A DNA stretch of 44,200 bases, taken from contig RDEW01000057.1 in assembly GCA_011109175.1 (NCBI GenBank), positions 33,605 to 77,804 on the forward strand, written 5' to 3'. Position numbers and translations under genes: made by a program. Positions 1 through 42,760 of the stretch are shown here, piece after piece (position 1 is the stretch's first letter; the number at the start of each line of letters is the position of its first letter). The notes below the pieces were generated by a model. That model was not told where the DNA came from, ran no database searches, and saw nothing but the letters and a program-made list of their open reading frames with translations. This stretch comes from Dicyema japonicum. Its lineage: Eukaryota; Animalia; Dicyemida.

Positions 1-3000
1 GAGAGACTCCTTTTATATCTATGCAAAATCAATCTGGTTTTCCGAAAAATTAATATTTAGATCAAAAAAATATAAATCAACTAATTGATCCAAAACCTAC
101 GTATCCAATGCAACAACAGCCACTTGTTAAAGACACCTTTAATTTTTGACAAAATAAACCTTTTAGCGGAAATTCTACTACTTTCATCCAAAAAACAACC
201 CAGAATTCAAATATTGACGATTTATTTAATTTATAACAGAAATAAACTTTATTTTCCATATAATTTTTTTAAATTACAAAATTAATTTCCGAGATTTTAA
301 CAATCAAGTTTAAGAAGTGAAATACGCGCTGACTTTCACAAAGAATGTCGACTTTGATTTATATGTACTACTGGGAAATCAAAAAATCATTATCGTCTTT
401 GATAGTGAGAACTTCTTCAACATGAGTCATTTTATAACTCAATAGGATAATTACCTTAAAATATCTAAACAATTTTATGGCGATAAATTTATGATGTGAA
501 TTAATCACACTTTTACCCATTTCACAATTGAGTAGTTTTAACATGAATCTTACTTACTTGAGATTTACTCTCCAATGCGAATTTAAATGTAGCGACGTGG
601 TAAAATTACCTACTCATTAAAGTTAAATTCATATATTTTAGTTTTTTTTTTACCAAAGATGGTATTAATGTTACCTTGGTTATATTTACTTTATGTCTTT
701 TGTGTGTGAAGTTGATTTTTTTGATTCTCAATTTACAAATAATTCATATGGTATTCATGCAGTGAGCATATATATCATAGTTAGAGAACTTATTCTGTCG
801 ATGTTGGATAACGTTTTTGAATTACTGTATTTTAAGCAATTGAGAATAGAAAATAAAATCGAATGCGAAACATATATCAAACATACTGATACATTTGATG
901 TAAAAAATTATAATTGTATAATAATATTTTTTAGATTGAACATTCTATAAATTTTGTTATCCAAGACAGTATTGTTGAAACATTTATAATTGGTTCTGAT
1001 CGAATTATTTTAATATACGATTATTCTTTTGTAAATCTAATGAAATGTAAATATGATGTAATACATGGAGTTTCATTCGACGAGCTATCTTTTCATCAAA
1101 TTTCTTTATTTCTTACTAGTGAAGGTTCGCTTTAATAATGACGATTTTGCAAGGTAAAATGGATTTTGTATTTTATCAAAATAACAACATTTTTGTTATA
1201 CGTTCTATTGATAATTCAGTAATTTTTATTTTAAATATATTCAGAAATCAAACAATGATGATAGAATACACGATTTTACACTTTCACACTGCAAGAATTT
1301 TATTGCAGTTAACATTAAAAGTAATAATATTTATGAAAATAATAAATTTAGAACCAAATAATACATATTACGTAGAAATTTATGAAATTCCTAGAAAAAA
1401 TTGGGAGAACGAACTTAATAATATGAAATTTGAAGTGGAAGATAATTTAATAATTGTTTAGAAACCTTTAAAATATTTTTAGGACAAGTCATCAAGTTTT
1501 TCGCCCTTAGTCTTCCTTTTTAAAATTTCTCCTCCAAGCAAACTGAGTCGTTGATTTAATTAACTTTTATTATCCATATAGCTCCTACTATAAACTCAAT
1601 ACAATCGTTGCTAAATAAAAGTGAATATGATAAATGTATTGCAACTGGAAATAATCATTTACTGACGCAAGCCTTCTTTGAAAACTTCCTTTTTAAAATT
1701 TCTCCTCCAAGCAAACTGAGTCGTTGATTTAATTAACTTTTATTATTCATTTAGCTCCTACTATAAACTCAATACAATCGTTGCTAAATAAAAGTGAATA
1801 TGATAAATGTATTGCAACTGGAAATAATCATTTACTGACGCAAGCCTTCTTTGAAAATTATTCAAGAGTATTTAATAAAACAGAGATATCTTATAATATT
1901 GGGTAATTTCAATTTATAATCTTAATTAATTAATATTTATTATGTGATTAATTTTAAGATCAGGAAAAGTTTCGTTTTCTGAAAATGGTAATGGAATATT
2001 TGAAATTATTTTAGGAATTTTACAATTTTACGTGCATTGGGAAGGAGATAATAATATTTATTGTTATAAATTACAGAAAACAAGTATGAACTGTGTATTT
2101 ACTAAATTAGGTGATACAAAACCTATTTCGTTAGTGCCAACTTCAGATAGTATTACATGCTTTTCANGGAATTTCACAATTTTACGTGCATTGGTAAGGA
2201 GATAATAATATTTATTGTTATAAATTACAGAAAACAAGTATGAACTGTGTATTTACTAAATTAGGTGATACAAAACCTATTTCGTTAGTGCCAACTTCAG
2301 ATAGTATTACATGCTTTTCAACAGCAAAAAGAAAATCAATTTTTATTTATAGTCTGGAAGATAACGTATTTGTTATTAAAAAATATTCAACAAGTATAAT
2401 TTTAAATTGTAAAATTTTTAGATGAGACACTTTTGGTCACCTCAATACCTAAAATACATAAAGTTAAGAAAATAGTCTTTATAAATGAGTTTTTTTACAA
2501 AGACGAGAACCATGGAGTCGTTGTTATTTTATTCAAAGATAGTTTTATTTATAAAATAGAATTTTGCAATAAGAAATCTGAAGTATCACTAGTACTTCAA
2601 AGGTGTCGCCGTAAATGACTATTTAAGGAATGAATTTGGAAGAGAGGGGAAAATAGAAAGTTTAAAAACTCTTGATTATTGTAAAGATCTAGTAATTATT
2701 TTTATAACTATTACAGATTTTTGTTGGGCAAACAAATAGAATCATTGCTATTGATGTAATTAAAAACAATATTTTATTCAATTTAAACCTCAAATTCGAC
2801 GATTTTTTCTTTAAAAGTTTTTTAATAACTGAAGATTATAAAATAATTGCATATGGACAAAATGGTCGAGGTTTACATTAAAAAAATTTCCCTGAATTAG
2901 ATGTAAACTCAAGTCGTTTAATAAAATGTGATATAAATGAAAAATTAAATGAATTTGATTTAATATTCAAACCAGATGATTCAGAAGAATACGAAGATAT

Positions 3001-4208: not shown

Positions 4209-6409
4209 ATGATTACAAATTCTAAAAACTGGAAAAAAGTGGACAATTCAAATTTAAAAAGCAATACTTTCGATGCTGTTATAGAGATTGAGGAAAGTAA
4301 TGACTACTGTCTACTAACAACGAATAAGGTTCCAAATAATAGTATACACATAGAAATCCAGATTCACACTAGTTTGACGTTTTCAAAAAAAAGAAAGCAT
4401 GTGCAGTCACTTAAAGGAAATGGAAAATTAAAAAAGACATATAGTGAAGAAATTGAAAATACAGCAAACATTGGTTTTATTGAACCTCTTTATCCCAATT
4501 TGCCTAGATTCTGGAATTTCTGCTTGGAATGCTTTAGAAATACATCCAAAAATTATTTCTGCACTAAAAAAGCTAGAATTTTATGAACCGACTGAAATTC
4601 AATCAAAAACCATTTCTTCCGCTTTGAATTCCCAATCCGACATCATTGGATGTGCTCAAACAGTTTAATTTGAAAATAAATTCAAAGGGAAGTGGGAAAA
4701 CGTTAGCTTTTGGCATTCCGATAGTTGATTTTATTCTCAAAAATAAAATGAAATCTAATTCCAATGTTGCTTTAAATTTATTAATTTTCAGCCTCAAGCA
4801 CTTGTTTTAACCCCTACTCGAGAGCTGGCGATTCAGATACGCGAGCATATTCTGCATATTGTGAAAACTGCAGATATTAAGGTCATTATTAAACTTGTAG
4901 TTTTTAGGTTGAATGTATTGTAGGAGGAATTGCCCAAGTTAAACAGGAACGGATATTTCAATCTTGCCCTGAAATTGTAGTTGCAACCCCAGGGCGGTTA
5001 TGGCAACTTATCCAAGATGTTGATTTCATACAATTTAAACAAAGGGATTTGATTTTGCATCTAAAGTCCGAAACGTTCGATTTCTGGTGATCGACGAAGC
5101 AGATAGAATGATTGGAAAAGATTATTTCGAACATTTTTCATTCATAATTAACGACTTGAATAGGTAATTCTATATATTTCATACTTACAGTGCTCTTGGG
5201 AGATCAATGAGGCGGACATTTGTGTTTTCAGCCACAATGACCTTTGTTCACGATACAAAAAATCGTCAAAATCCAAATGGAAAAAAGCAAACTCTCAAGT
5301 CAAAACTTAGTGAGTTCAATAGTACTAACTAATAATTAGAATCCCTGGTGAGTAAGACTGGAATAAGACGAAATTATACTTTAATTGATTTATCGAATAC
5401 TTCGTTTCTTGTAAACACTCTTTACGAGCAAAAGCTGTATTGTAAACGAGAAGAGAAGGCATTTTATTTTATAAATTATAAAAGGATCATTATCTTTACT
5501 ATATATTGGAATCTCTGAAAGGGAGATCTATCGTATTCACAAACTCGAAAGATTGCACGCGCAGAATTGCTGCATTTCTTCGAATTTTATCTCCTCCTAT
5601 TACTGGAAGTTTTTCTGTTTGCATTCTACATGCCGACATGCTTCAGAAACATCGATTCCGTAACATTGAGAGATTTCGTGGTTTGTCAAGCTGAGATAGT
5701 TATTCTTCAGCTGCAAAGGGTCCCTCCGTTTTGGTCGCAACGGACGTAGCTTCACGTGGACTGGATATCGAGGATATCGAAAATATCATACACTATCAAG
5801 TATCGACTGTGACTGAAGTTATTTAATTTTAATTATTTTTAGATTTATGTTCATCGTAGTGGAAGAACGGCGAGGGCTGACAAACCTGGGTGTACTATTA
5901 CTATCGTTGGTTACGATGAGCATAAAAGATTTCTGAATATTCAACGCCAACTCAATACAGGTTTATTTTATGTTTTGATTATTAGTTTCTAATATGGCTA
6001 CCTATGAGATAAAGCTATCGTTGGTTACGATGAGCATAAAAGATTTCTGAATATTCAACGCCAACTCAATAGAGGTTTATTTTATGTTTTGATTATTAGT
6101 TTCTAATATGGCTACCTATGAGATAAAGGATTTTGATTTGCTTAAAAAGTCGAAAGAACGAGTTTCACTTGCAGTCAAGATTATGAATTTAGAACATACG
6201 TTTTCCTTATAATAACCAAGTATAGAAATGAAAAGGCAAAACAGCATCATAACTGGATTGAAAAATGTGCTCATGATGCGGAAATAGATATTATCGAGTT
6301 TATTAGTTTTTTGACTGTTAATAGTATGCCTGAAGTTAATGCTTATAAAGAGAACGGTGAAAGAGCAGATACTATCCGTATCTTGCGAACTCAACTAAGG
6401 GGACTTTGA
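4209..6409 (+). CDS. DDX24: ATP-dependent DEAD-box RNA helicase DDX24/MAK5, 13 micro-introns
   Basis: After splicing (4474-4507, 4663-4687, 4766-4791, 4882-4907, 5019-5044, 5164-5190, 5310-5339, 5459-5484, 5681-5710, 5818-5842, 5961-5985, 6200-6225, 6298-6324) the protein shows the Q motif [11 protein letters not shown]|[30 protein letters not shown]|[16 protein letters not shown] and HRSGRTAR. The tail [14 protein letters not shown] is DDX24-like. A 114-bp duplicate (6015-6128) must be removed to keep the frame. Confidence 0.9.
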
Positions 6410-7394: not shown

Positions 7395-8247
7395 ATGCCG
7401 AAAAAATTTAAAACTGAAAATACTAAAGCAGTCATAGCAAGAGAACGGAAAGCTCAGACAAAAAAGGATGCTGAAGATACACAACAAAAACAACGTAACG
7501 ACGAATTGTGGAAGGATGATGATAGATTAGTTTTAAAAAAACAAAAAAGAAATGTAAATTATTTTTTAATTATATATTCATTTAGGAAGAGAAGGAAGCC
7601 AAAAAACAAGAAAAAATAACTCGCCGAAGAGAATTGAAAGAATTTGAATTACAGGAAAACCAAGGCACAGAAGCAATAGTAGAAACTTCTTTAAAAGTTG
7701 AATCTGAATATGTTCCTCAACCGAAGCCTATTAAGGCTCCTAGCAGAATCAGTAAAGCTTTATTTCTCTATTTTAGGTGAAAATAACATTTTATTTGATG
7801 AAGAATTTTCCATTAATAATAAATCTTTGAACATGGAGGAAGTCGAGTATGAAAATGAAAATTCAAGGTAAAATTACGCCTAAAAATTTTAGAAATAAAA
7901 AAGACCAAAAAATTGATCGACATCCAGAAAAAAGAATGAAGCTTGCATTCCGTGAATTCGAGGAAGTTCGGTTACCTGAATTACGCAAAGAATTTCCAAA
8001 AATGCGATATAAACAACATTTGAAGATGATGAGAGACGAATTTGAAAAATCAGATGTTAATCCAATGAACAAGCCTCACATGTCGTATAATGCTCCTGGT
8101 ATTCCATATTTGTGCACTTTTTTTAATATTAGATGAAAGGAAAGTTAAGGTTATTGAGAAGAAATTGGAAAAGTTGAGGTAATTTTGTATTATACTGATT
8201 TGAGTTTCATCAGTTTGGAGGCAGAGTGTGAGAATAATCAGGAATGA
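7395..8247 (+). CDS. CCDC124: Coiled-coil domain-containing protein 124 (Lso2 family), 5 micro-introns
   Basis: N-terminus MPKKFKTENTKAVIARERKA..WKDDD and C-terminal DRHPEKRMKLAFREFEEVRLPELRKEFPKMR..SDVNPMN are CCDC124 signatures. The frame stays open after splicing to TGA at 8245-8247. Confidence 0.9.
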
Positions 8248-11259: not shown

Positions 11260-13235
11260 AACCATCATTGAATGCTTTCCAAATTGAAAGTCTTGTGGGT
11301 GCGATGCTGTCTATGGTTTTTTGTCAAGAAATTTGAGTCCCTGCGATGAATTATTCAAAGTTGTCAGTGAAAGATACTCACCAGACATGTGGTTCTATAC
11401 AGGAGTAACCTATTTAATTTCTAAAAACGAAATTTGAAGATCACCAGATGATTTACGTCTGATCTATTGTATACCAATATTATATAAATTACTCACAAAG
11501 TGTGTTCATTTCAAACTTACTGATTAGTGGGATCTTTCGATCTTATTTCTGACAATCAGCTGGAAGGGAAGAGAAAGTGTCAAGATCCAAAAGAGCAAGT
11601 TCTGAGAGCAGTGTGTGATTGTTCACGTCTTCCAACCTAGATAAAAAACTTTGTGATGAGTTTAACTGGCAGATGGAGAGGTATATTAAATTTTAAAAAA
11701 GAGAGGATTGGAATCATAAAACTAAACCGTTGAATATTGCAAGGAAATTCATTGTCTCCGTAGCTTTTTGTCTTATTTATGAATCCGTTAAGTAAAATTT
11801 GTCAAAACGCCAATCAACGAAAACATATTCAAAAAACCACTTATGACCTGAAAACTCTTGAGGAGATGGAAGATACAATGATTAAAGTTTTGGAAAAGAT
11901 AGATAAATATTGTGACGTTGTTGGTCTAAAAAGTCGGCAACCGATCTAAAATACATAAACGGCGTGAAATGTTTGGATGGATTTTAAGGCTACCTATATC
12001 TCGGGGTTTTAGAAGACAAGGAAAGTAATGTAATGAAACATGAAGTTTTGAAGACTATTTTGAAAAATTTGAGGAAGGAGATTGTGAGTTTGTTGCATAC
12101 ATAACTCAATTTTGTAAATATTTTTAAAGCTATAAACGAATATGCGTTATCTCTTTACAATTACTATATTGGACTAGTAAATATTGAATTAAACGAGTTT
12201 GAAAATATTGATTTTGAAATTCGACCTGTATTTTCTGAGTATAAAATTTATCTAAAACCGGCTAACACGGAAAAACCAAGTCGGCAAGCGGAAATATGCT
12301 GTTTCAATTTACTAATGATTTGGAAAGAAAATCTGACATTTTTACCAGAAAGAATGGAATCTTGCGGGTCTTGAAAGCAAAGAGAACATATAGGACCACG
12401 ATCGCTAGATTTCTATATTTAAAGTTGAATCCAATTCGAGTTGATATCAAAGCTATCAGAGAAACGCAGAAGTTTCTTTTTGAATCAATTGCAAAAAACC
12501 CGCTCAATTCTATTCTTTTTAACAGTTATGAGAATGAGAAGTTGATATTACTGAATCTTCCGAGCCATGCATTGTTTGCTTCGAGATAAAAATTTATTTT
12601 TTAATGAAAAAGAATCAACAGCAATCACTGGTTAGAAGACATAATGAAGTTTTTAGATGCGCAAATCTTCATCTATACGTTACAAGAAACACTCAGTTCG
12701 GTCGATTGTTGCGATACATAGGGTGGAAATCCGAGTGGACACTTCAATTATGACTGACGCTGAAGTGCAACACAACAAACCAGAAATTTCGGTTTATGAC
12801 AGAGTGAAGAATGAGATCGTGATTATAGAAGTTGGAATCATCAAACTGAGGTGGAAAAGCTACACAGATATGACTTGTTAGCTAGTGAATTGAAAATTTT
12901 ATATAATTCTCCGGTCAAAATTGTTTCAATTATTTTAACATGAAATGGAATTGGTACAAAATGCTTAGATAATCATGTGAATGTTTTATTGATTTATATG
13001 TCGAGTAGGTCATATATTCGGTCTTTAGTACTAAAGAAGACCATAGAAAGCATTATCATCGAACATAAAAAATGAGATCAGAACTCCGATTGAGGATATT
13101 CTAGTGCCACAGATCGATTGTAAGAGCGCGCAACTAATTACGTTCACGAAATGACGAGTCCGGCTGTCGAGAACGAGATGGAAATCGGGTGGATTCTCAG
13201 TGAGAATGCTTATAAAGAGGAAGAGTCTGTTAATT
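11260..13235 (+). mobile_element. Degenerate R4/Dong-like non-LTR retrotransposon (RT plus restriction-like endonuclease)
   Basis: Fragments across many stops and frameshifts: WFYTGVTYLI, ILYKLLTKC, SDNQL, LQGNSLSP, YLGVLED, FKAINEYALS, HNKPEISVYDRVKNEIVIIEVGI (RLE) and YDLLASEL. Confidence 0.8.
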
Positions 13236-15311: not shown

Positions 15312-16243
15312 ATGTTCTTTTATTATTTTTTTATTTTCTAGTTTATAAAATATGTTCTTACTTTTTAAAATAATAAAAGTTCTATTTAAGTATTTTTATT
15401 ATTTATGTGTGTTATGCTAAAACTCAATTTATACTAGTTTCTATTGATATGAATAGTATTTGAGCAGATACACATATATGAAAAAATACAGTGAAGATAT
15501 CAGAAATGGAGTAAAAAAAACTTATCTATCCCCTAATACTGAAGCGACAAATCCTGATAATTTAAATGTAAATAAGATTTCTATGTTAGCTAGATAAAGA
15601 TACGCTCATTGAAACCGATTAAAGGGGAAATGCTCGAGTCCAAAGATAATTTCATTGTGCTGCCGTCTTATAAATTAACAAGATCTAAAACAGAATCAAG
15701 TAGCATTTTCTGGAACCATGATATGATAAGACACTGGTCGCAAACTGTTTTATATACTTTTTTAAATAATTTCAGGGAACAGTTTTATTGGATGGTTCTG
15801 GAAAAATTAACAATTTTGAGTGTGCTGGTAAAAAAACCGAAGAAAATGGAGTTTGTTACGAAAATAATATTTTTAGATTATTCCTGATAATTTTGATGTT
15901 AAAAATTCTAAAGTGCGCCGTTATGATAATGGACCAGACACATCTTGAATTGATGTGGGAATTGATTCCATCATTATTATTTACTAAAAATAATATTTTT
16001 AGATTATTCCTGATAATTTTGATGTTAAAAATTCTAAAGTGCGCCGTTATGATAATGGACCAGACACATCTTGAATTGATGTGGGAATTGATTCCATCAT
16101 TATTATTTACTATGTGTTAATTAATCTTTTTTAATTCTGTTTCTTTTTATAAAAATGGAAATATTAAAAAATCCATATTTCTAAATACAAAAAGTAACTT
16201 TTCTTAAAGATAAAGGCCGCACATGGTTTTTAATGATATATTT

Positions 16244-16414: not shown

Positions 16415-18190
16415 AAAAATTTATTTCGCCTTCAAAGCATTCTTCGGCAAAAACTTCGTTCACCATTTCTGTCATGTCTGTATGAATCTCTGTACTGATA
16501 TTTGATGTTCCCTCGCATCGACACTCAAAAAATTTTTCCCAACAATTTTGAATTTGCACTAAAGTTACATTCGCCCATGCCTCTGAAATTAATTTCATGA
16601 CATTTCGCAAATTGAGACATTTTATTGATTCCAAAAAATGGTCTGTATTTTCACAAAAGCAAACGAATTCAATAAGTAAATTGTTGTAATTTGNAGAAGC
16701 CATTTGTAATTTTCCCTTTTTCGATTATCAGCTTTTAGAACGGTCTCAAGAGCGAATTTGATCGTAGGATGGGTAGAGATTCTTTTGTAACAGTCAAGAA
16801 ATTCCTCGGAGATCTTGTTTTCAAAATAAGACTTAGAGACTAAGAGGTTGGGATGCTTCAAAAAATAATACTCTAAGAGGTTGGGATGCTTTTTGACGAA
16901 CTCTTTGACCTTTAGAGTTTATTGAGACATTTTATTGATTCCAAAAAATGGTCTGTATTTTCACAAAGGCAAACGAATTCAATAAGTAAATTGCTGTAAT
17001 TTGTTTTGAATCCTTTAATTATCCCCATATTCAATGGCTGGATTAATGATGTTGTATTTTTAGGTAAATAAAAAAATTCAATGTTTGAACAATCAACTAA
17101 TCGACGTGGGCTACAACATTAATATTTTTCTTTCTTCTGAAAGCATTTTTGCATTTATTTTAAAAATCCAGGTTTTAAAAATTTCAATCGTCATCCACGA
17201 ATTTTTAGAGGAGGAGTNAACATTAATATTTTTCTTTCTTCTGAAAGCATTTTTGCATTTATTTTAAAAATCCAGGTTTTAAAAATTTCAATCGTCATCC
17301 ACGAATTTTTAGAGGAGGAGTACATGAGAGGAGGAGTACATTCTTTGTGCTGCTTAAAACCGAACGAATTTTAGCCACGCTGCACAAATGACTTAGTTGG
17401 TGTATATTTGAAATAGAGTGCTGTTTCTTCGCAGTTAAAAATATTTTCTTTACCATAAAGGACAACTTTAGCGTCCAATTCTTAAAAAAATCAGCAAGCT
17501 TGGATGAATCTGCAGATCCCTTTTCACCACACAATGTTTTGTATTGTAAATTGTGTCGCTTCTTGAATCTTTGAAGCCAACCATTAGACGATTTAAAATC
17601 ATTCATTGATAATTTAGATGCGACCATGGATCCAATTTTCTTAATCGTAGGACCAGACAGAGGAACTTTTTCAAGTCTCAATTTTTCAAAAATTTCGAAA
17701 ACTTTGAGATCAATATTTTTCAGCTTTTCAGAATCACTTTTATGTTCGAAAGAATTGAAATAAGTTCCATTATCAAGAAAAGGAGCATCCTTTTTTATGC
17801 GTGAGATTGTAGCCTTGCTAACTTTGAAGATGTCCGCAATTCTACGCTCTGAAAGATCCTTTTGTTTGATATATTGAGATATTTCGAGTTTTTTTTGTAA
17901 GCAATTTTCATTTTAGGCATCTATTCAACATAGAACAGTGGAGAATACTTTAACAATGATGACAACGTGACAAGGAAAAATTATCTTTAATTAAACAAAA
18001 AAATATATAAATAAAAAATTAATTATATTAAAAACTATTTAGTTTGTAGAAATTTTTAGGTGGCTCATAACGAGGTCTATTTTTAATTGATTTTTACAAA
18101 TTCCCTAGGAAAAATGCAGTTTTAAAAATCGTGGCTCAAGAATTGAGTTTGTATCATAAAGCGAGTATGGATCATACCCGAGGTCTGGCT
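16415..18190 (-). mobile_element. Degenerate pogo/Tigger element (CENP-B HTH plus DDE)
   Basis: HTH SERRIADIFKVSKATISRIKK, FKSSNGWLQRFKKRHNLQYKTLCGE, TTSLIQPLNMGIIK and ISEAWANVTLVQIQNCW. Frameshifted and locally duplicated at N joins. Confidence 0.85.
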
Positions 18191-20469: not shown

Positions 20470-20978
20470 GCCGTTTCTGAGAATCGTAAAGCGGTGAAGA
20501 CCTCCTAAGAGTAATGGCTTATTCGTTAAAACTCTAAAGATGGAAAAGTATACCTGGTTAAAAAAAGTCAGCCGAAAGTCAATCACTGGTGAAATTTTGA
20601 CATGAAAATAGATTGTCGAAGCTGGATATAAAGACGAAATATTAGCTGATTCTATGCAAAATTTCTTAAAGGATAGCTAGTGTTCGTTTCATATGTTAAA
20701 GCGAATATTCCGAACGGGTGCATACTATTCTGACAAGTGAGAGATGTGGCTCACTTGATTAGATGCACATTTAAAAATAGACCAAATTGGCCAATTCGGG
20801 TAGTTATGACATGCGCTGCAGGATGAACAAAATGCCTGGTTAAAGTAGTTAACTAGACGCAAACAAGATACCATAAAATGTGTCAGTTGATTATGATAAC
20901 TGACAGGTGACCATAAAAATCAGAATTTTCTAAAGAGTGGTTAACAACTCACCTATCGAAATAACTGTCCTTGAAAAT
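20470..20978 (+). pseudogene. Decayed fragment of nuclear 28S (LSU) rRNA
   Basis: Collinear degenerate matches to conserved LSU core sequence: AAAGATGGAAAAGTATACCTGG (cf. AAAGATGGTGAACTATGCCTG), TAGCTGATTC..AGGATAGCT, TAAAGCGAAT, GCGCTGCAGGATGAAC..GGTTAAAG, AAGAGTGGTTAACAACTCACCTATCGAA..CTTGAAAAT. Isolated and AT-drifted. Confidence 0.85.
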
Positions 20979-21372
20979 CAACTCAACTTCTGAATTTCTT
21001 TTCTTTGGAATTATTCGCAAAATTGGCCTTTTCAATGTAGATGGAACATAGTCAAAACTCTATTATGAAATATTTAGTATTAATAAAATATTCAAAAAAG
21101 GAATTCTTAAACACACTTATTCGGATAAAGTCATATCAAGTGCTTCATTTTTGAAACTAAATGGTGTTTTATTCTCCAGTTGAGATTGGATGAAAAAAAA
21201 ATTTATGTGGTAACAAACAATTTCCATTCTTGTGAGATTTTTTTAATCTCTAACTGAAAATCGGATTTGGAATAGACCTCCTGAATTTTTGCTAACTGTT
21301 CTCTCAATATTTCCGGCAATTTATCTTCATATTTGAAGCAGAATTCATCAGAATTTTTTGATTATTAAAGTC

Positions 21373-22292: not shown

Positions 22293-23193
22293 GGTCGTCT
22301 ATTCTTGAGAAGAGTTTAACGAAATTTAGATTTTTGTGGCGAAGTTGGAAAATTCTCTTTTCCTGTCCTGAGAATCCCAGCATACTTTAGTTCATTTACC
22401 AAGTTTCTCTTTTTATGAAGAAAACCGCATTGTTTTCTGGTCATCTGATTATGAAATTTCTGGTCTAAGAATTATTCTTTATTTAAACAGCTCCAGCTTC
22501 AGATTAAACCAACTTATAAGATATCTTTAGAAGTCGTTAAGAATGTATAGATAATAGGTAAAACCTTCACCTTAGCATTGTGAATTAATCTTAATTCGCT
22601 GACTAGAATGCCATTTTTTAAATTTTTAAAGTTTTTAGATTATCTATTGCCAAAAACTCTTTGACATAATAATCTGAATTGAGTAGTTTTTAATCTTTTA
22701 GAATTGCTTCATTCTAAATCAACGTTTTAAATGTAAATTCCTCTCACAATCTCATTATGTTCAAATGCAATCTGAAATGAGCATTCTATTAAATCTAATT
22801 GCCATATGGTCCATCGAGTTAGTTGAAAATTCCTCAATAAATAATAGTTGATTTCTCGGAATTCTTCTCTAAACCACACAGTTCAACTAAATGTTCACAT
22901 CGTCCATCATAAGTGTCAGAATAGAGCGATTTTTTCATTCACACACATTTTAACTAGTTTATATAAAATTGGCATGCAATTTAATCACTCTATAATCATT
23001 CGGATCAAGAAAAGTTCGATTTTATTCGGATTAGATATGCAATTCCCATATAAGACTATTTTTGTAAATGATTAATACCATTAATAATAATTCTGATCTG
23101 TTGGAATACAAAATTTTGATAAAAGTTTAGCTTTTGGATGAATTAATTATTCAGCTCCATGCTCATGAAATTTATCCGACTGTGACATAGTAC

Positions 23194-25132
23194 TGTCACA
23201 GTCCGATAAATGGACACTTGGCTTAAAAATGTATAAAAAATATATAAATAGCTATTGTATACGTCAATATTAAGAATTAGTTAAATATTTTAGAGAAATG
23301 TTATACTTTTTAATTTATAAAAAAAGCGTGTAACTATACGTATTGTGAAGCTCAGCAAAGAAATTCTTGAAAAAATCAAAAAAATAACTGAAAACCAAGA
23401 AGAAAACACATTAGACGACAATCCAAACAGAAAACAACGATTTAGGCTAAAGCAGCTTGCGAAAAACATATGCTTTGAAAATGGAAATGTATTCTTTATT
23501 AAGAATTCAACCAAATTGCGATTTTTCGCAGAGGATGACATTGAGTTGAAGCTTAAATGCATTGAGGTATCGGATTAATTAACATTAATTAGGCGGAACA
23601 TAATTATAATCATTTTGGTAGAGATCGACTGTTCAGTAAGCTAAAGACTAAGTATTATGGTTTGACTAGAGATGAAATTGCAGGAGTAATTAATAAATGT
23701 GTTCATTGCCAGGTAAATATTAATTCTATAATGTTAGGCTAAGAAATTAATGGCGACTAAGCCACAAATAACCCCAATCATCGCTCGTGGGCCTAGAGAT
23801 AGATATATAGCAGATCTCATTGATCTTCGCAGATATTCTGAAATTAACGATAAATTCTCTTGGGTATTTTAGATGAGATATTTAATATAAAGATTCTTGT
23901 AATCGTTGATTCCTTCTCGAAATATGTAGTTGTCGAATTATCAAAGTCGAAATCTGCGGTAGAAATAGCTAACCTATTCCAAAATATTTTTTATTACATC
24001 GGACCACCAATCATCCTCCAAACAGACAATGGGAAAGAATTCTGTAATTCGTTAATTGACGAAGTCTGTGAAAAATATTCGATCAAGCATGTGCGTGGTA
24101 GGGCACGAGCGCCCTGGATACAAGGTCAAGTAGAGAGGTTGCCTGATGGTTTTAATTTTTTAAGGTTCAACCAAAGCATAAAACGTTGGATATCTTCAGC
24201 AAGTGCCTCTCGTGGATATTTTGGGCGATATTGTACCATAATCAAAGACATTGTTTATGATTACAATAACACAATACATTCCACAACCGGAAAAGTCCCG
24301 TTCTACTTGTTTATGGGTGCTCAAAATCCGAATCCAATAACGGAGTCGGAAATGGAACAATTATTATCGGGAGATGTCGACAGTGCAATCGTAGATGCAC
24401 GTGAAGAAGCGTATTCAAAACTTCTTATCGCTGGAGATAAAATGATAGAAAGGAGAAGATGGAAATATGATGAAGATTCCATAAAAGTCGGAGCTACAGT
24501 ATTACTAAGGTAGTAATTTTTTAATACATTTCCAAGACAAGACAATGATGCCAATATTCGAAGGTTCCCATTATACGATGGATTATCAACCAACCAATAT
24601 GTTGTGGTAGATCAACAAAATGACATGTACTTGATCGAAGATGAGAATGGTGAAAAAACTAACGTACATATATCAAGAATTACAAAAATTGACTAACGAT
24701 TTTGTTTAAAATTTTTCATCTAAATTTTTTTAAGATTTGGAAGCCCGCATAGGGTTAGTTGTTTAAGATTTGAGTTAGGGTTAGGAGCAGACGAAGCTTT
24801 TATATGGAATCTAGAATTTTTTTCTATTTTCTAATGTAAATTTTAATTATTATCTCAATTTTAACCGATTTTTTTACAATTTTAAATCATTATTTTTCAA
24901 TGGTTAACCAAAAATCATATAGACTTCTCGATAATCAAAAAACACCGTTGATGTTAGTGTGATGTTGGTTTTTCCGTAATTCTGCTTCTTTCAACATGTA
25001 CCAAAATTATTAAAAATGGGTTTAAAGTGGGACTTGAAAAAAATTAACATGTATTTTGTATGGCCATATTTCTCAAAAATGAAATTTTGAAATTGTCCAT
25101 TTATTCGCGTGTCCATTTATCCGACTGTGACA
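23194..25132 (+). mobile_element. Ginger-like (retroviral-type integrase) DNA transposon with 24-bp terminal inverted repeats
   Basis: Left TGTCACAGTCCGATAAATGGACAC (23194-23217) versus the reverse complement of 25109-25132, TGTCACAGTCGGATAAATGGACAC (one mismatch). TGT..ACA ends enclose an integrase-only gene with no RT, protease or LTR. Confidence 0.85.
23327..24696 (+). CDS. HHCC-DDE integrase/transposase with 5 micro-introns (start codon unresolved)
   Basis: Introns 23567-23592, 23713-23737, 23864-23892, 24138-24164 and 24510-24536 give a stop-free frame: EHNYNHFGRD..CVHCQ (HHCC), RYIADLID, LQTDNGKEF, QGQVER|FNQ, YNNTIHSTTGKVPF and an SH3-like tail ending VHISRITKID*. Confidence 0.88.
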
Positions 25133-25139
25133 TAGTATG

Positions 25140-25613
25140 ACCCTTTTTAAAAAATATATTCATTTAATTTAGGCAAATATCATATGGGATTCGTATCGTG
25201 CCCATATTTCTTTAAAAGTCAAAGAGCATTGTCGAAAAAGGAATATCCAACTTATTGTTATCCCTGGTGGATTGACTCCCTATTTACAGGCTGGTGTCAT
25301 AAAGATATTTAAGGAGTTTAGGGATAAAATTTCCCTTATTATTAATGAATGGGAAAACTCCTCAGATATTGAATATATTAGTGGTGATTGTAGTAAACGG
25401 TTAGGTTAAATCTTCTTGGAATACTTTAAGCAATGCTACAATTTTGAATTATATTAATTCAGCAGGGTTCTTAAACTCGACTGAAAATTGGCATATTATT
25501 AACTAACTTAACTGTCCCAAACTGGGATCATCAAAAATAAATATAATGAAAAATTGACTGTTTTCAAAAACTGCCCCTAAAAGCGGGGGTGCCCCAAACC
25601 GGGGCCGTACTGT
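25140..25613 (+). mobile_element. pogo DDE 3' remnant with right terminus
   Basis: QLIVIPGGLTPYLQAG..IFKEFRDKI. Ends CCCCAAACCGGGGCCGTACTG-TA. Confidence 0.65.
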
Positions 25614-29581: not shown

Positions 29582-30108
29582 ATGCTAATAACAATTTTAA
29601 TTTTTATTCTGTCTAATGTGACTTGTGGTCCAGTACTATTTGAAACATGTGGGGGATCATCTTCTATAACAAGCATTGATGTTACAGACTGCAACACGAC
29701 TTCGTGTATTCTATATGGAGGAGAGAATTTAGACATAAAAATAAATCTAACAATATGTATAGCTACGACTTTATTTTTAGCAAAATCACTCAACAATTTA
29801 AAAGCGGAAGGATTCGTTAAAACACCTCACATTACTATTTTTCCAACTTCTGACGCATGTCCTTATATTTCAGGGGAGTGTCCACCTGTGGAAAACGATA
29901 AAATCTGCTTTGACTATAAAACGAAACTTCCCAATATACGTTTGATAGTATTTTTAATATATTTATCATATAGCGGATGAGTCTAGAAGTTTTTTGGAGG
30001 TTTTTTGAAGGTAATGAAATAATCGCCTGCGCAAAATTTGATGTAAAGACCACCTCGCACAAAAATAATTTCAAAGAGGGAATTGATGTCAAAATTAGTT
30101 TTGAATGA
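29582..30108 (+). CDS. NPC2-like / ML-domain secreted lipid-binding protein, 2 micro-introns
   Basis: Signal peptide followed by FETCG..IDVTDC..CIL..DAC..GECP..IACAKFD, the six-Cys ML pattern. Introns 29757-29780 and 29948-29973. Stop at 30106-30108. Confidence 0.85.
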
Positions 30109-30129
30109 ATTTCATNAAATATAGTAAGT

Positions 30130-31375
30130 TTATTGAGAGGTGCATTGAGTAGTATGTGACTGACCATGAAAATGGCTTCTTTCTTCATCCTCTTGTTCAT
30201 CATCAGACTGAGTTCCTCCAGTAAATCGAGTTTGTTCAACAAAGCTATCCATTTTGACAAGAACAGCATCAGATTGATTACATTCCTTTTCAGGCCCAAA
30301 GTTTCTATTCAAATGTTTTTTCAAAATCTAAAAATAAGAATCTCAAAATAAAACTAAAAGGTCCGATTCTGATGCAAAGTTGTCAGGAGGATACTCCACT
30401 GTGAAACAAATATAAAGATTGCCTCGAGGTCCGTCATTGGGAGGCATTCCTTCATTCTTCACTATCCGAATATCGTCTACACTACATATACCAATAAAAC
30501 CATTTTTTATTATCTTGTTGACATGCAAATAGAAACACGTACCATCCAAACGTTGGACGGGAAATTTAGCCCCACAGATGGCTTCCGACATTATCACAGT
30601 TTTGTTCATTATCAAATCACCACGTTCGCATCTGAATGTATCATGTGGTTTCTGATCAACTTTAATTACAATATCTCCAGCCTCCATTCCCGGCTATAAA
30701 TAGTGAAACCCCAAACCAACCAATTGGTCGCCTTCTCCTCTCAAAGTAATACACGAGTCTTGACAGGATCCGGGTGGGAAGGTCACTTCCACCGTATTGC
30801 AGGATGCAATTACTTTATTTCCCTCACATTCCGAACACCGGTCAGAATAGTCAACCGACTCCCCTTAAAAAAATTATTAGTAATGAAAATTATTTAAGTT
30901 TTGGATAAATGGTACAATCGAATATTTATACCTTGTCCTCCACAGTCATCACATTGAGCTTGAACCTGAGTTCTTAGTCCGAGACCAATTTGTTGGACAC
31001 GAATGACTCTGCCTTTTCCTCTACAGGTAGAGCAGGAATAATTTCGACCAGATTTACTCCCAGAACTTAATAATGTAATGATTATTCTTACCCACGGCAT
31101 GTTTTACAAGTAACTTTCTTTTTAATCATAAGTTTTGTTTTTTTGCCTTTGTAGCAATCCTCTAAAGACAGACTTAAGGAAATAAAGCTCATTTGGGGGT
31201 TACCCGAATGGTATATATGTCATCTCAGATTTACGAGATGACCTGCTTCTTCTTGAATTTCCTTGACGACCAAGAAAACTCTCAAATATTCCTTCACCAA
31301 AACCATCCCCAAAAACTAAGAAAATGTTATTAAGACATTACAGTCATCAGATGAAGTAAAAAATCTGTCGACCAT
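30130..31375 (-). CDS. DnaJ subfamily A (type I)-like protein without a J-domain
   Basis: The spliced frame is open: G/F region, LSLEDCYKG, four zinc-finger repeats (CKTCRGSG, CSTCRGKG, CDDCGGQG, CSECEGNK), GEGDQL|PGMEAGDIV, EAICG, NEGMP, GNLYI and C-terminal CaaX CTSQ*. Confidence 0.88.
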
Positions 31376-41099: not shown

Positions 41100-41240
41100 T
41101 TATGAAAATTTTCGTTGAGTAGCAGTGGCGGAGTGGATGGCCTAAAACCGATACACCTAAAAGACCTTGTCGCTCCTCTGACAGGGGAATCCGGTGCACG
41201 TCTCTTGAAGTCAATTGCATCTTTGTGCAGCAGAATAATT
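41100..41240 (+). mobile_element. CRE-like RT N-terminal fragment
   Basis: SSGGVDGLKPIHLKDLV..GESGARLLKSIASLC. Confidence 0.6.
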
Positions 41241-41244
41241 ATAT

Positions 41245-42760
41245 AGCGACAGTGCGTATTCGTTTATGGCATGAAACAAGTTTGTAGAGATTAATTATTC
41301 TTTCCATAATTCTCTGCAGGATTGACTCCAGAACTTTTTTTTTAAGAACAATACTCCCTTTGTCTTCTAAAACCCCCAATAACGGTATCCTTCCACCCCT
41401 TCCATAGGTTTACAGGACGGAAGATTGTCCAAATTGGACGCAGATTTTTGAGGATTCATCTCCAACCCGACAGTTTCGAAAAACTTCCGGACTGTTTTCA
41501 TCATTTCTACAATCGTATCCTCTTTATGTACAAGTAGTTTAAGATCGTCCACAAAGAACAATAGTTCGTCTTCATATTAGGGTTACTTTGGTTGATTACC
41601 AATTTGGGAAATTTCGCATTTAGTATTCGACTGAGAGGATCCATGACCATAACGAACAATTAAGGGGATAATGTAAGATCCCACAACCAAGTTCTAACAA
41701 AGAGATCCCTGAACACTCTAGCTCATGGAATAGAAAGTCACGATCTACAGAATCGAATACCTTCTTGACATCGATCCATGCCGAAATTATTCATTGATTA
41801 ATGAGAGTCTGTTCTTTTACATCCTGGCATCGCTTTCTCGTCCCAAGCTGGTTATCGGAAATTTGACAAAATGAATCCACTAAGTCCGATAGTTTCAAAT
41901 TGACGCATTTAGTTATTATCTTGTATAGATTATGGGGGTTTCACAGACTTCTTTTTTGGGATCAAATATGTGATTCCTGTATAAAACCATTTTCCTGGAA
42001 TGTAATCTCTTTGGACTATTCTGATAATCTCCTTACTGGAAGACATGCAGCGAGTCCATTTTTAAAATAAAGTAGCTGTAGACGCCGCCTAAAGTGGGGC
42101 GTGGTAGTCTCGCAGTTAGTTATTCTAATTACGATACCATCGAATTCGGAGTTTTCAGCTTTTCTACTCCAAACGTTTTTCCAAAAATTCATGCATTCTT
42201 ACTCCTCAAAATTCAATTTAGCAACACTATTTTCGCATAGATTTCTGTAGAACCTTCTGCGTTTCGTTCAAAGCATCTGTTGTCTTTTCGGAACTCATTC
42301 CTCGTTTTGTGAACAGATATTTGTTTCTTTTTAATCCGTATTAAGTCTTCAATTAGCGACTGGATAGTTCTCCCTTCTTCGCACCTCTTATAGCCAAATG
42401 CACACAATACGTCCATCACATTTTGTTTTTAGTTGATCCTTTTAGGTTTATCGGCCTTTTTTAAAATCATCAGTTTCTTGACATCACATAGGGTCATGTT
42501 CTTTGAGTATCGTCTATTGTACTTGCTTGAAATAAGTTTCCAACCCCCTCTTAGAATTCTTCTTAGTAGCATCGATAATAAGAGAGATCCAAGTGGATTC
42601 AGAGCCATCAACCTCACTGATGATAGCTGACAGTAAGTGGAGGTTTGATAGTATCTTCCTGACTCTCTCGACGGGACTACCCACGCAATTTTCCGCGACT
42701 CCTCGAGACTCGAACTATTATTTTCCACAGGGCCACCCATAGTATTAGACTTTCAATAAA
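41245..42760 (-). mobile_element. Second degenerate R4/Dong-like non-LTR element, same family as 11260-13235
   Basis: WFYTGITYLIPKK, SDNQLGTRKRCQDVKEQTLIN, AWIDVKKVFDSVD, LFVMVMDPLSR, FFVDDLKL, VGLEMNPQKSA and FHAINEYALSLYN. Confidence 0.85.

What the first reader, a model, noticed from the sequence alone, without database searches (positions are those of the whole stretch)
23194..25132. Apparently intact Ginger-like DNA transposon whose integrase is split by five host-type micro-introns
Seen: 24-bp TIRs with one mismatch, and five 25-29 nt GT-AG introns whose removal restores a stop-free HHCC + DDE + SH3-like integrase. One removal turns GQVER-LPDGFNFLR-FNQ into the canonical GQVERFNQ. It is the only undamaged transposon gene in the window, and the only one where I found introns. 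Known: Ginger elements are integrase-only DNA transposons with TGT..ACA ends, and some carry introns. Inference: this family has fully adopted the host micro-intron code. It is either recently active or a domesticated recombinase that kept its ends, which would matter if the host performs programmed DNA rearrangement.
Basis: partly seen in the sequence, partly recalled or inferred. Interest (0 to 1): 0.85.

Follow-up and report, generated by a model that had tools for sequence, protein, structure and literature searches.

The report
Ginger2 transposon with five spliced micro-introns
This is a 1.9-kb jumping gene whose integrase is split by five 25-29-base introns like those of its host, likely a tiny octopus-kidney parasite; this copy has lost its start codon, and the family likely passed between this host and microsporidian parasites and likely gained its introns in the host.

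Summary
The TIRs and all five introns are real. Each GT-AG removal scores at or within 1 point of the best homology score. Contigs of a related sample lack exactly introns 1, 3 and probably 5 (runs not recorded as RNA). Diverged relatives keep introns 1, 3 and 4 at the same sites with other sequence.

The copy is not intact. Its start codon reads ATA where most copies read ATG. It has no target duplication. Its left end abuts a stub of a second right end.

The family is multi-copy, with deletion derivatives, and its spliced copies carry damaging changes. It is therefore best read as a selfish Ginger2-type transposon, not a domesticated recombinase.

The 408-aa HHCC/D-D-35-E integrase sits inside a clade whose named members are microsporidian or octopus-labelled. 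The two nearest octopus-labelled models retain the same micro-introns, which points to a dicyemid host (inferred, about 75%). Likely history: horizontal exchange with microsporidia, then intron gain in the host (about 45%). Introns in Ginger transposases are already known.

The parts
23170..23187 (+). Stub of a second right end (18 nt, carries the right-end-specific base)
   Evidence: the junction is spanned by X1 record 1 and X3 record 18
23188..23193 (.). 6-nt spacer between the stub and the left TIR; 5 of 6 identical to the 6 nt that follow the true right end (25133-25138)
   Evidence: sequence
23194..23217 (+). Left TIR, 24 bp, starts TGTCA (TGTNR pattern)
   Evidence: resembles the end of Ginger2-type locus L002
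23336..23566 (+). Exon 1; first codon is ATA in this copy and ATG in the run majority
23567..23592 (+). Intron 1, 26 nt, phase 0
   Evidence: absent from 3 of 3 listed spanning contigs of X6-X8, gap placed in this bin by depth; other 27-28 nt GT..AG introns at this site in relatives (loose ends)
23593..23712 (+). Exon 2, zinc finger H80-H84-C113-C116
   Evidence: Pfam zf-H2C2 and Integrase_H2C2 above cut-off
23713..23737 (+). Intron 2, 25 nt, phase 0
   Evidence: no listed spliced contig of this subfamily; a diverged relative reads through without it in X6 and X8 (loose ends)
23738..23863 (+). Exon 3, first catalytic Asp (D143, assigned by alignment)
23864..23892 (+). Intron 3, 29 nt, phase 0
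   Evidence: missing in X8 record 22, kept in X6 record 9; 9-residue retained insert at the same site in P0037
23893..24137 (+). Exon 4, D204 and E240 (D-35-E)
   Evidence: Pfam rve 1e-11
24138..24164 (+). Intron 4, 27 nt, phase 2; in frame, stop-free, weak GTT donor
   Evidence: kept in X6 record 10; a different 27-nt GT..AG intron at this site in an X5 relative and an intron-free reading in an X6 relative; retained insert in P0023
24165..24509 (+). Exon 5, end of the catalytic core and helical linker
24510..24536 (+). Intron 5, 27 nt, phase 2, two in-frame stops
   Evidence: X8 record 27 has 31 gap letters, at least 11 of them in this bin
24537..24696 (+). Exon 6, predicted SH3-like beta barrel, stop codon
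   Evidence: homologue model; whole-chain fold matches PFV and Ty3 integrase
25093..25104 (-). Second, subterminal copy of the 12-nt inner TIR motif (right end only), likely a transposase binding site
25109..25132 (-). Right TIR, 24 bp
25133..25613 (+). Target: 3' half of a decayed pogo-like element; its 5' half is not on the other side of the Ginger element
   Evidence: Pfam DDE_1 E 1.7e-4, just under the cut-off

Best explanation
This is a start-codon-dead copy of a multi-copy, likely selfish Ginger2-type DNA transposon family whose integrase gene is likely spliced by the host like any host gene, and whose protein would bind the 24-bp ends and cut and paste the element. Shown: the ends, the five introns, the HHCC and D-D-35-E motifs, many variant and deleted copies, and the loss of the ATG here. 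Inferred: that the intron-free contigs are mRNA; that a retroviral-type intasome acts on the TGT..ACA ends; and that the host is a dicyemid (about 75%). History, inferred (about 45%): the lineage was exchanged horizontally with microsporidia in an intron-free form. It then gained five introns, four of them after an exon AG, in this host before splitting into the subfamilies that share them. This copy landed in a pogo element. A second end-directed event made a head-to-tail junction, and a deletion later removed the left neighbour and the left target copy.
For: Introns. Exact intron-length gaps appear only in listed contigs of X6-X8, whose cover is concentrated on the coding region; listed spanning contigs of X1-X5 keep the introns. 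Same-site introns with different sequence occur in relatives. Selfish family: variant contigs and internal-deletion joints in X2 and X5; damaged spliced copies. Ginger2 type: TGTCA ends, no GPY/F or YPYY, TIR like that of L002, which has a TATA duplication; the tree puts the lineage beside the L002/insect/nematode clade, 95/88. Host: 24-34 nt host introns; nearest relatives P0023 (64%) and P0037 are filed under Octopus sinensis yet retain micro-introns at sites 3 and 4; dicyemids have a 27-nt median intron and about 5 introns per gene (PMC6543705). Horizontal exchange: window plus octopus-labelled rows fall in three places among microsporidian rows, and one clade is rejected, AU p = 0.0003; microsporidia are known to infect dicyemids (PMC8262960, PMC4150386).
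Against: No run is on record as RNA, and the gaps are counted per contig, not shown base by base. Introns 2 and 4 have no spliced contig of this subfamily; introns 3 and 4 are also seen retained. No TSD could be read. No genome is held, and the tool says depth is not copy number. The host is not proven: no host protein could be tied to a named species, most 1-kb bins are 25-39% GC against 36.7% for Dicyema japonicum (PMC6736024) and 29% for Henneguya (PMC13644364), and myxobolids have equally short introns. The direction of intron change is open, since microsporidia lose introns. P0001, P0007 and P0024 come from contigs of unknown kind. The group tested was named after a first tree had been seen. 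The support for window+P0023+P0037 falls from 99/90 to 74/68 under the simpler model.
Confidence: 0.75

Rival explanations
1. The introns are ancestral to this Ginger2 lineage and simply shrank with the host's introns. The microsporidian relatives lost them, and no gain took place in this host.
For: Ginger1 transposases carry 0-4 introns, some conserved into host genes (PMC2836005). Microsporidia are intron-poor (recalled). L002 appears to carry an intron near its 3' end. Diverged subfamilies share sites 1, 3 and 4, so the introns are old.
Against: Inserts of 6 or more residues occur at site 3 in only 1 of 140 and at site 4 in only 1 of 156 covering proteins, both in the window's own clade (biased, since frame-breaking introns and spliced models are invisible). 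L002 reads through the zinc finger and core without a break.
Confidence: 0.3
2. The family supplies the recombinase for programmed somatic DNA excision or circle formation in a dicyemid host, either domesticated or working in trans from many copies as ciliate transposons do (recalled).
For: Dicyemids are reported to undergo chromatin elimination and to form extrachromosomal circles (PMC6543705, citing Noto 2003). The family appears transcribed and spliced. The window holds an end-spacer-end junction of the kind that circles would give.
Against: Spliced copies carry 10 non-synonymous and 6 synonymous listed changes, including a stop. There are many deletion derivatives and intact TIRs. Dicyemid circles are described as mostly unrelated non-coding sequences that may share an origin with mitochondrial circles (PMC6543705). 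The junction is equally explained by a local hop next to an old end.
Confidence: 0.05
3. The 'introns' are never spliced. The locus is a decayed or mis-assembled pseudogene, and the intron-free contigs are separate intronless DNA copies.
For: No RNA label on any run. Retained forms exist. The window shows short-read assembly artefacts (two-copy duplications at single Ns), and the core may be a collapsed consensus.
Against: Five GT-AG segments of host intron size sit exactly where homology demands, with GC 22% against 36% in exons. GT..AG and length are kept in relatives whose intron sequence has turned over. Contigs 96-97% identical lack exactly these segments.
Confidence: 0.05

Closest known systems
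Ginger2/TDD DNA transposons (Bao, Kapitonov and Jurka 2010, PMC2836005; read parts 1-2 of 5 and passages)
   Same: TGTNR termini; single integrase-type transposase with H2C2 and DDE; no GPY/F or YPYY; no RT or RNase H; terminal motif shared with L002, a TATA-duplicating element found here
   Different: 1.94 kb with 24-bp TIRs, against 2.7-6.7 kb for listed autonomous families and 45-297 bp TIRs; five introns of 25-29 nt; C-terminal beta barrel rather than the Cys-rich tail seen in L002; no TSD readable at this locus; belongs to a clade whose named members are microsporidian or octopus-labelled
Microsporidian Ginger-like integrases (Pseudoloma neurophilia P0006; Dictyocoela, Nosema granulosis, Cucumispora, Nematocida, Enteropsectra). 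Ginger in Anncaliia is noted in PMC5751038 (passages).
   Same: Same clade (97/92 and 98/95 nodes); about 49-51% identity over the core for P0006 and P0013; same length and domain order
   Different: Their proteins read through without inserts; this element has five micro-introns and lies in an intron-rich genome
Ginger1 and its domesticated genes GIN1/GIN2 (PMC2836005)
   Same: Intron-bearing integrase-type transposase (0-4 introns)
   Different: No GPY/F, YPYY, OTU or Ulp1; no CCGG target; shorter
KRBA2/SCAND3 domesticated Ginger2 genes (PMC3575427; read part 1 of 3)
   Same: Ginger2-type catalytic core; automatic names of relatives are 'KRAB-A domain-containing protein 2-like'
   Different: No KRAB or SCAN fusion; TIRs kept; multi-copy; spliced copies appear to be decaying

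Membership tests
Ginger2/TDD | Termini follow TGTNR | tested here: met
   TGTCA at both ends
Ginger2/TDD | Transposase with H2C2 zinc finger and DDE core | tested here: met
   Pfam; H80/H84/C113/C116, D143/D204/E240
Ginger2/TDD | Lacks GPY/F and YPYY motifs | tested here: met
   motif scan found none
Ginger2/TDD | No RT, RNase H or LTR; one gene between TIRs | tested here: met
   1,939-bp element with one gene
Ginger2/TDD | 4-bp TSD inside an RTATAY target (PMC6839031 reads it as 6 bp) | tested here: inconclusive
   Left junction is rearranged; the flanks give no 4-bp match, and 5 of 6 for a 6-bp reading. Flanks of other copies were not visible
Ginger2/TDD | TIR length in the described range (45-297 bp) | tested here: not met
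   24 bp. A descriptive range: L002, with a TATA duplication, has 26 bp
Ginger2/TDD | Groups with Ginger2 transposases, apart from Gypsy | tested here: inconclusive
   Sister to the L002/sandfly/nematode clade, 95/88, with polyproteins outside; no named Repbase Ginger2 or TDD-4 sequence was available for the tree
Ginger1 | GPY/F and YPYY motifs, OTU or Ulp1 tail, CCGG/CCGT target | tested here: not met
   AT-rich flanks
GingerRoot | TA..TA termini, 100-150 bp TIRs | tested here: not met
   TGT..ACA, 24 bp; definition from PMC6839031 passages
Polinton/Maverick | AG..TC termini and a DNA polymerase gene | tested here: not met
Domesticated transposase (GIN1, KRBA2 type) | Single copy without TIRs | tested here: not met
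   TIRs present; many variant and deleted copies
Domesticated transposase (GIN1, KRBA2 type) | Purifying selection across species at an orthologous locus | tested here: inconclusive
   Only 16 listed coding changes in organism C, 10 non-synonymous and 6 synonymous; no orthologous loci available
IS3EU | Second ORF and IS3-like clade (recalled) | not tested
   No reference sequence available; only one gene fits between the TIRs

The most novel reading that the evidence does not exclude
A Ginger2 transposon imported from a microsporidian hyperparasite gained five host-type micro-introns in a dicyemid. It moves through end-to-end circles like its bacterial IS3/IS481 relatives, and now supplies the enzyme that cuts the host's somatic DNA circles out of the chromosomes.
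Probability: 0.04. Interest if true: 0.85.

Novelty: new variant of a known kind. Interest (0 to 1): 0.42.

Why it matters

What has value is the history. If an intron-free lineage shared with microsporidia gained five 25-29 nt introns in one host, while other lineages in the same genome stayed intron-free, it is a small, datable case of spliceosomal intron gain in an animal with the shortest introns known. It would also be a case of transposon traffic between a hyperparasite and a parasite.

A practical by-product: some 'Octopus sinensis' KRBA2-like protein models are likely parasite transposons with unspliced micro-introns. A link to programmed DNA rearrangement would be important but has no support here.

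Tried and rejected
No genome is held, so copy number, empty sites and dN/dS could not be computed.

No RNA holder was listed; this is no evidence either way.

Extra 5' introns joining an upstream ATG to the frame are possible on paper. I rejected them because homologues start at the ATA codon and other copies read ATG there.

Host identification: the DnaJ search gave one unnamed 41% hit among 60 candidates. The Atlas did not answer. An LSU rRNA fragment could not be compared with named eukaryotes.

The metagenome scan gave 80 loci, only 21-39% identical. Seven of 78 with a hit had an inverted-repeat candidate, and only L002 showed a clean TGT..ACA end with a TSD.

Four exact TIR matches in viral contigs were not followed up and are taken as chance.

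Contigs that begin at 25132 with unlike sequence before first looked like an empty site. The flank is a pogo repeat, so they may be other pogo copies; I did not count them as polymorphism.

Our earlier findings held nothing on this genome or its relatives. Noto 2003 is not held.

Literature searches listed no paper on Ginger elements in dicyemids or myxozoans, and 'Ginger' occurs 0 times in the main text of PMC6736024. Supplements, including its repeat tables, and Repbase were not seen and may list the family.

Tree rows: 137 of 179 hits were kept; 55 hand-picked rows; 32.

Full report
1. Observation. The element runs from 23194 to 25132, with 24-bp inverted repeats that differ at one base; shuffles give no such match. 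Removing five GT-AG segments of 26, 25, 29, 27 and 27 nt gives one stop-free frame. Read from 23336, it has 408 codons and is 50% identical to P0001 end to end, with no gap at any junction. At each site I scored every frame-restoring deletion of 0-44 nt starting within 15 nt (168-461 per site) against three homologues. The GT-AG removal tied for the best score at four sites and was within one point at intron 2. The joint chance is about 1e-9. Introns are 22% GC and exons 36%. Pfam finds H2C2 and rve, and the spacing is D-35-E. A model of homologue P0001 (mean pLDDT 81) has a C-terminal five-strand barrel and matches foamy-virus and Ty3 integrases best. The SH3-like label is my reading of the strand pattern; that domain was not searched alone.

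2. The copy is not intact. No in-frame ATG precedes the zinc finger. The codon that aligns with the homologues' Met is ATA. Base 23338 reads G in all depth of X1, X3 and X4, in 1617 of 1728 in X2 (these four runs are one sample) and in 928 of 1079 in X5. The flanks give no 4-bp duplication. Directly left of the left TIR lie 18 nt of a right end and 6 nt that match the true right flank at 5 of 6; two contigs span this junction. The right flank is the 3' half of a pogo-like transposase whose 5' half is not on the left. The simplest reading (inferred) is an insertion into pogo, a second event beside the old right end, and a deletion. Both ends differ from the run majority by about 4-7%, while most listed contigs across 23640-24715 differ by 0-2 letters. 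The window also shows short-read artefacts. The clean core may therefore be a collapsed consensus.

3. Splicing. No run is recorded as RNA. In runs X6-X8 (organism C, two studies), cover is concentrated on the coding region. Among listed contigs that span an intron by at least 31 letters on each side, intron 1 is missing in 3 of 3 (26, 26 and 27 gap letters), intron 3 in 1 of 2 (29), intron 5 in 1 of 1 (31, read as 27 + 4) and intron 4 in 0 of 1; none spans intron 2 (28 records listed, 311 not shown). Bin depths place the gaps on the introns: 4.05 expected against 4.04 seen for intron 1 in X7. Listed spanning contigs of X1-X5 keep the introns. Loose ends show diverged relatives with other 27-28 nt GT..AG introns at site 1 and site 4 (X5), and intron-free readings at sites 1, 2 and 4 in X6-X8. 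I infer that these are spliced transcripts; intronless DNA copies are the unexcluded alternative.

4. A selfish family. X2 depth is 162 on the left flank and about 440-1,800 in most element bins. X5 shows at least ten internal-deletion joints among the 15 rows listed. The tool warns that depth is not copy number, so I claim only several variant copies. Of 16 listed coding changes in organism C, 10 are non-synonymous, including a stop and a conserved Gly, and 6 are synonymous (only 40 of 287 table rows were shown). This fits decaying copies that are still transcribed, not a conserved host gene.

5. Relatives and host. Host genes in the window have introns of 24-34 nt in 10 of 11 cases, read by eye. 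Among animals such introns are reported only in myxobolids and Dicyema (PMC13644364, parts 1-2 of 3 read). The best hit among 1.84 billion representatives is P0023, at 64%. P0023 and P0037 are filed under Octopus sinensis but keep in-frame inserts at exactly intron sites 4 and 3. An X7 loose end encodes the same insert as P0023. Micro-introns are not octopus-like, and dicyemids live in octopus kidneys, so I infer parasite DNA in that assembly and a dicyemid host (about 75%). Dicyemid genes have a 27-nt median intron and about 5 introns per gene (PMC6543705, passages); this gene has five. Against this, the window's GC is mostly below the 36.7% of D. japonicum (PMC6736024, passages), and the one host-gene search was uninformative.

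6. Tree. In a 55-row tree the window groups with P0023 and P0037 (99/90). They sit inside 28- and 29-row clades (97/92, 98/95) whose other named members are Pseudoloma, Nosema, Dictyocoela and Cucumispora proteins and further octopus-labelled models. The larger 39-row group is sister (95/88) to a clade holding L002 and sandfly and nematode proteins; polyproteins lie outside. L002 is a 2,362-bp element with 26-bp TIRs, a TATA duplication and an end motif like ours. The six window and octopus-labelled rows fall in three places, and forcing them together is rejected (AU p = 0.0003; group chosen after a first tree). Microsporidia are known to infect dicyemids and myxosporeans (PMC8262960, PMC4150386, passages). 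Horizontal exchange is thus likely if the octopus-labelled rows come from one parasite genome. Its direction, and gain versus loss of the introns, are not shown.

7. Mechanism. Shown: ends, gene structure, motifs and family behaviour. Inferred: the host spliceosome removes five introns from the mRNA of ATG-bearing copies. The integrase binds the TGT..ACA ends and the 12-nt inner motif, present twice at the right end, and cuts and pastes the element. This copy could move only in trans. Intron 4 alone is in frame and stop-free and has a weak donor; its retention would put nine residues into the helix after the catalytic Glu, likely disabling the enzyme. Whether that is regulatory is untested. 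The end-spacer-end junction resembles IS3-family circle junctions (recalled), but one rearranged locus cannot show a circle pathway.

8. Comparison and verdict. It works like Ginger2/TDD and meets four sequence criteria. The TSD and named-reference phylogeny are inconclusive, and the TIR is shorter than described, so I call it Ginger2-type rather than a proven member. It fails the tests for Ginger1, GingerRoot, Polinton and a domesticated gene. Ginger1 elements with up to four introns are in print (PMC2836005). My ten searches listed no account of Ginger elements in dicyemids or myxozoans; supplements and Repbase were not seen. Verdict: real feature, new variant of a known kind, interest 0.42. 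The programmed-rearrangement reading stays open at about 4-5%.

Noticed in passing
window 23170-23217: Right end + 6 nt copied from the right flank + left end: a head-to-tail junction like an IS3-type circle junction (recalled) or a local hop beside an old end. Spanned by two contigs.
   Followed up: partly
proteins P0023, P0037, P0002, P0026, P0028, P0165-P0168: NCBI 'Octopus sinensis' models on contigs of 64 kb to 1.3 Mb belong to this transposon clade. Two retain micro-introns, so they are likely parasite contamination of the assembly. P0028/P0165-P0168 are near-identical copies of an insert-free lineage.
   Followed up: partly
window 20657-21040: Fragment of eukaryotic LSU rRNA (Rfam 84.9 bits), likely a pseudogene; could help place the host.
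   Followed up: no
window 30130-31375 (-): DnaJ type I gene with seven introns (26, 31, 26, 68, 27, 30, 27 nt); my model has no J domain, which may lie further upstream or be lost.
   Followed up: partly
window 7396-8200 (+) and 29585-30110 (+): Ccdc124 gene and an NPC2/ML-like gene (label by eye, no Pfam hit), each with micro-introns of 24-34 nt.
   Followed up: partly
window 11800-13000 (+) and 41200-42100 (-): Two decayed non-LTR retrotransposon copies of one family; their motifs recall elements annotated in microsporidian genomes (from memory, untested), which would be a second shared family.
   Followed up: no
window 24750-24782: Telomere-like TTAGGG words in the element's 3' non-coding part; the run majority has one more unit.
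   Followed up: no
window 1512-1857, 2009-2320, 5901-6128, 15861-16112, 17115-17322: Near-perfect two-copy duplications of 100-170 bp, two with a single N at the joint: likely gap-closing artefacts.
   Followed up: no
L002 258-2619: Complete Ginger2-type element with 26-bp TIRs, TATA duplication, Cys-rich tail and an apparent 3' intron.
   Followed up: partly
runs X1-X8, organisms A, B, C: The element is 96-100% identical across three organism labels; these may be close species, mixed infections or transfer between co-infecting parasites.
   Followed up: no
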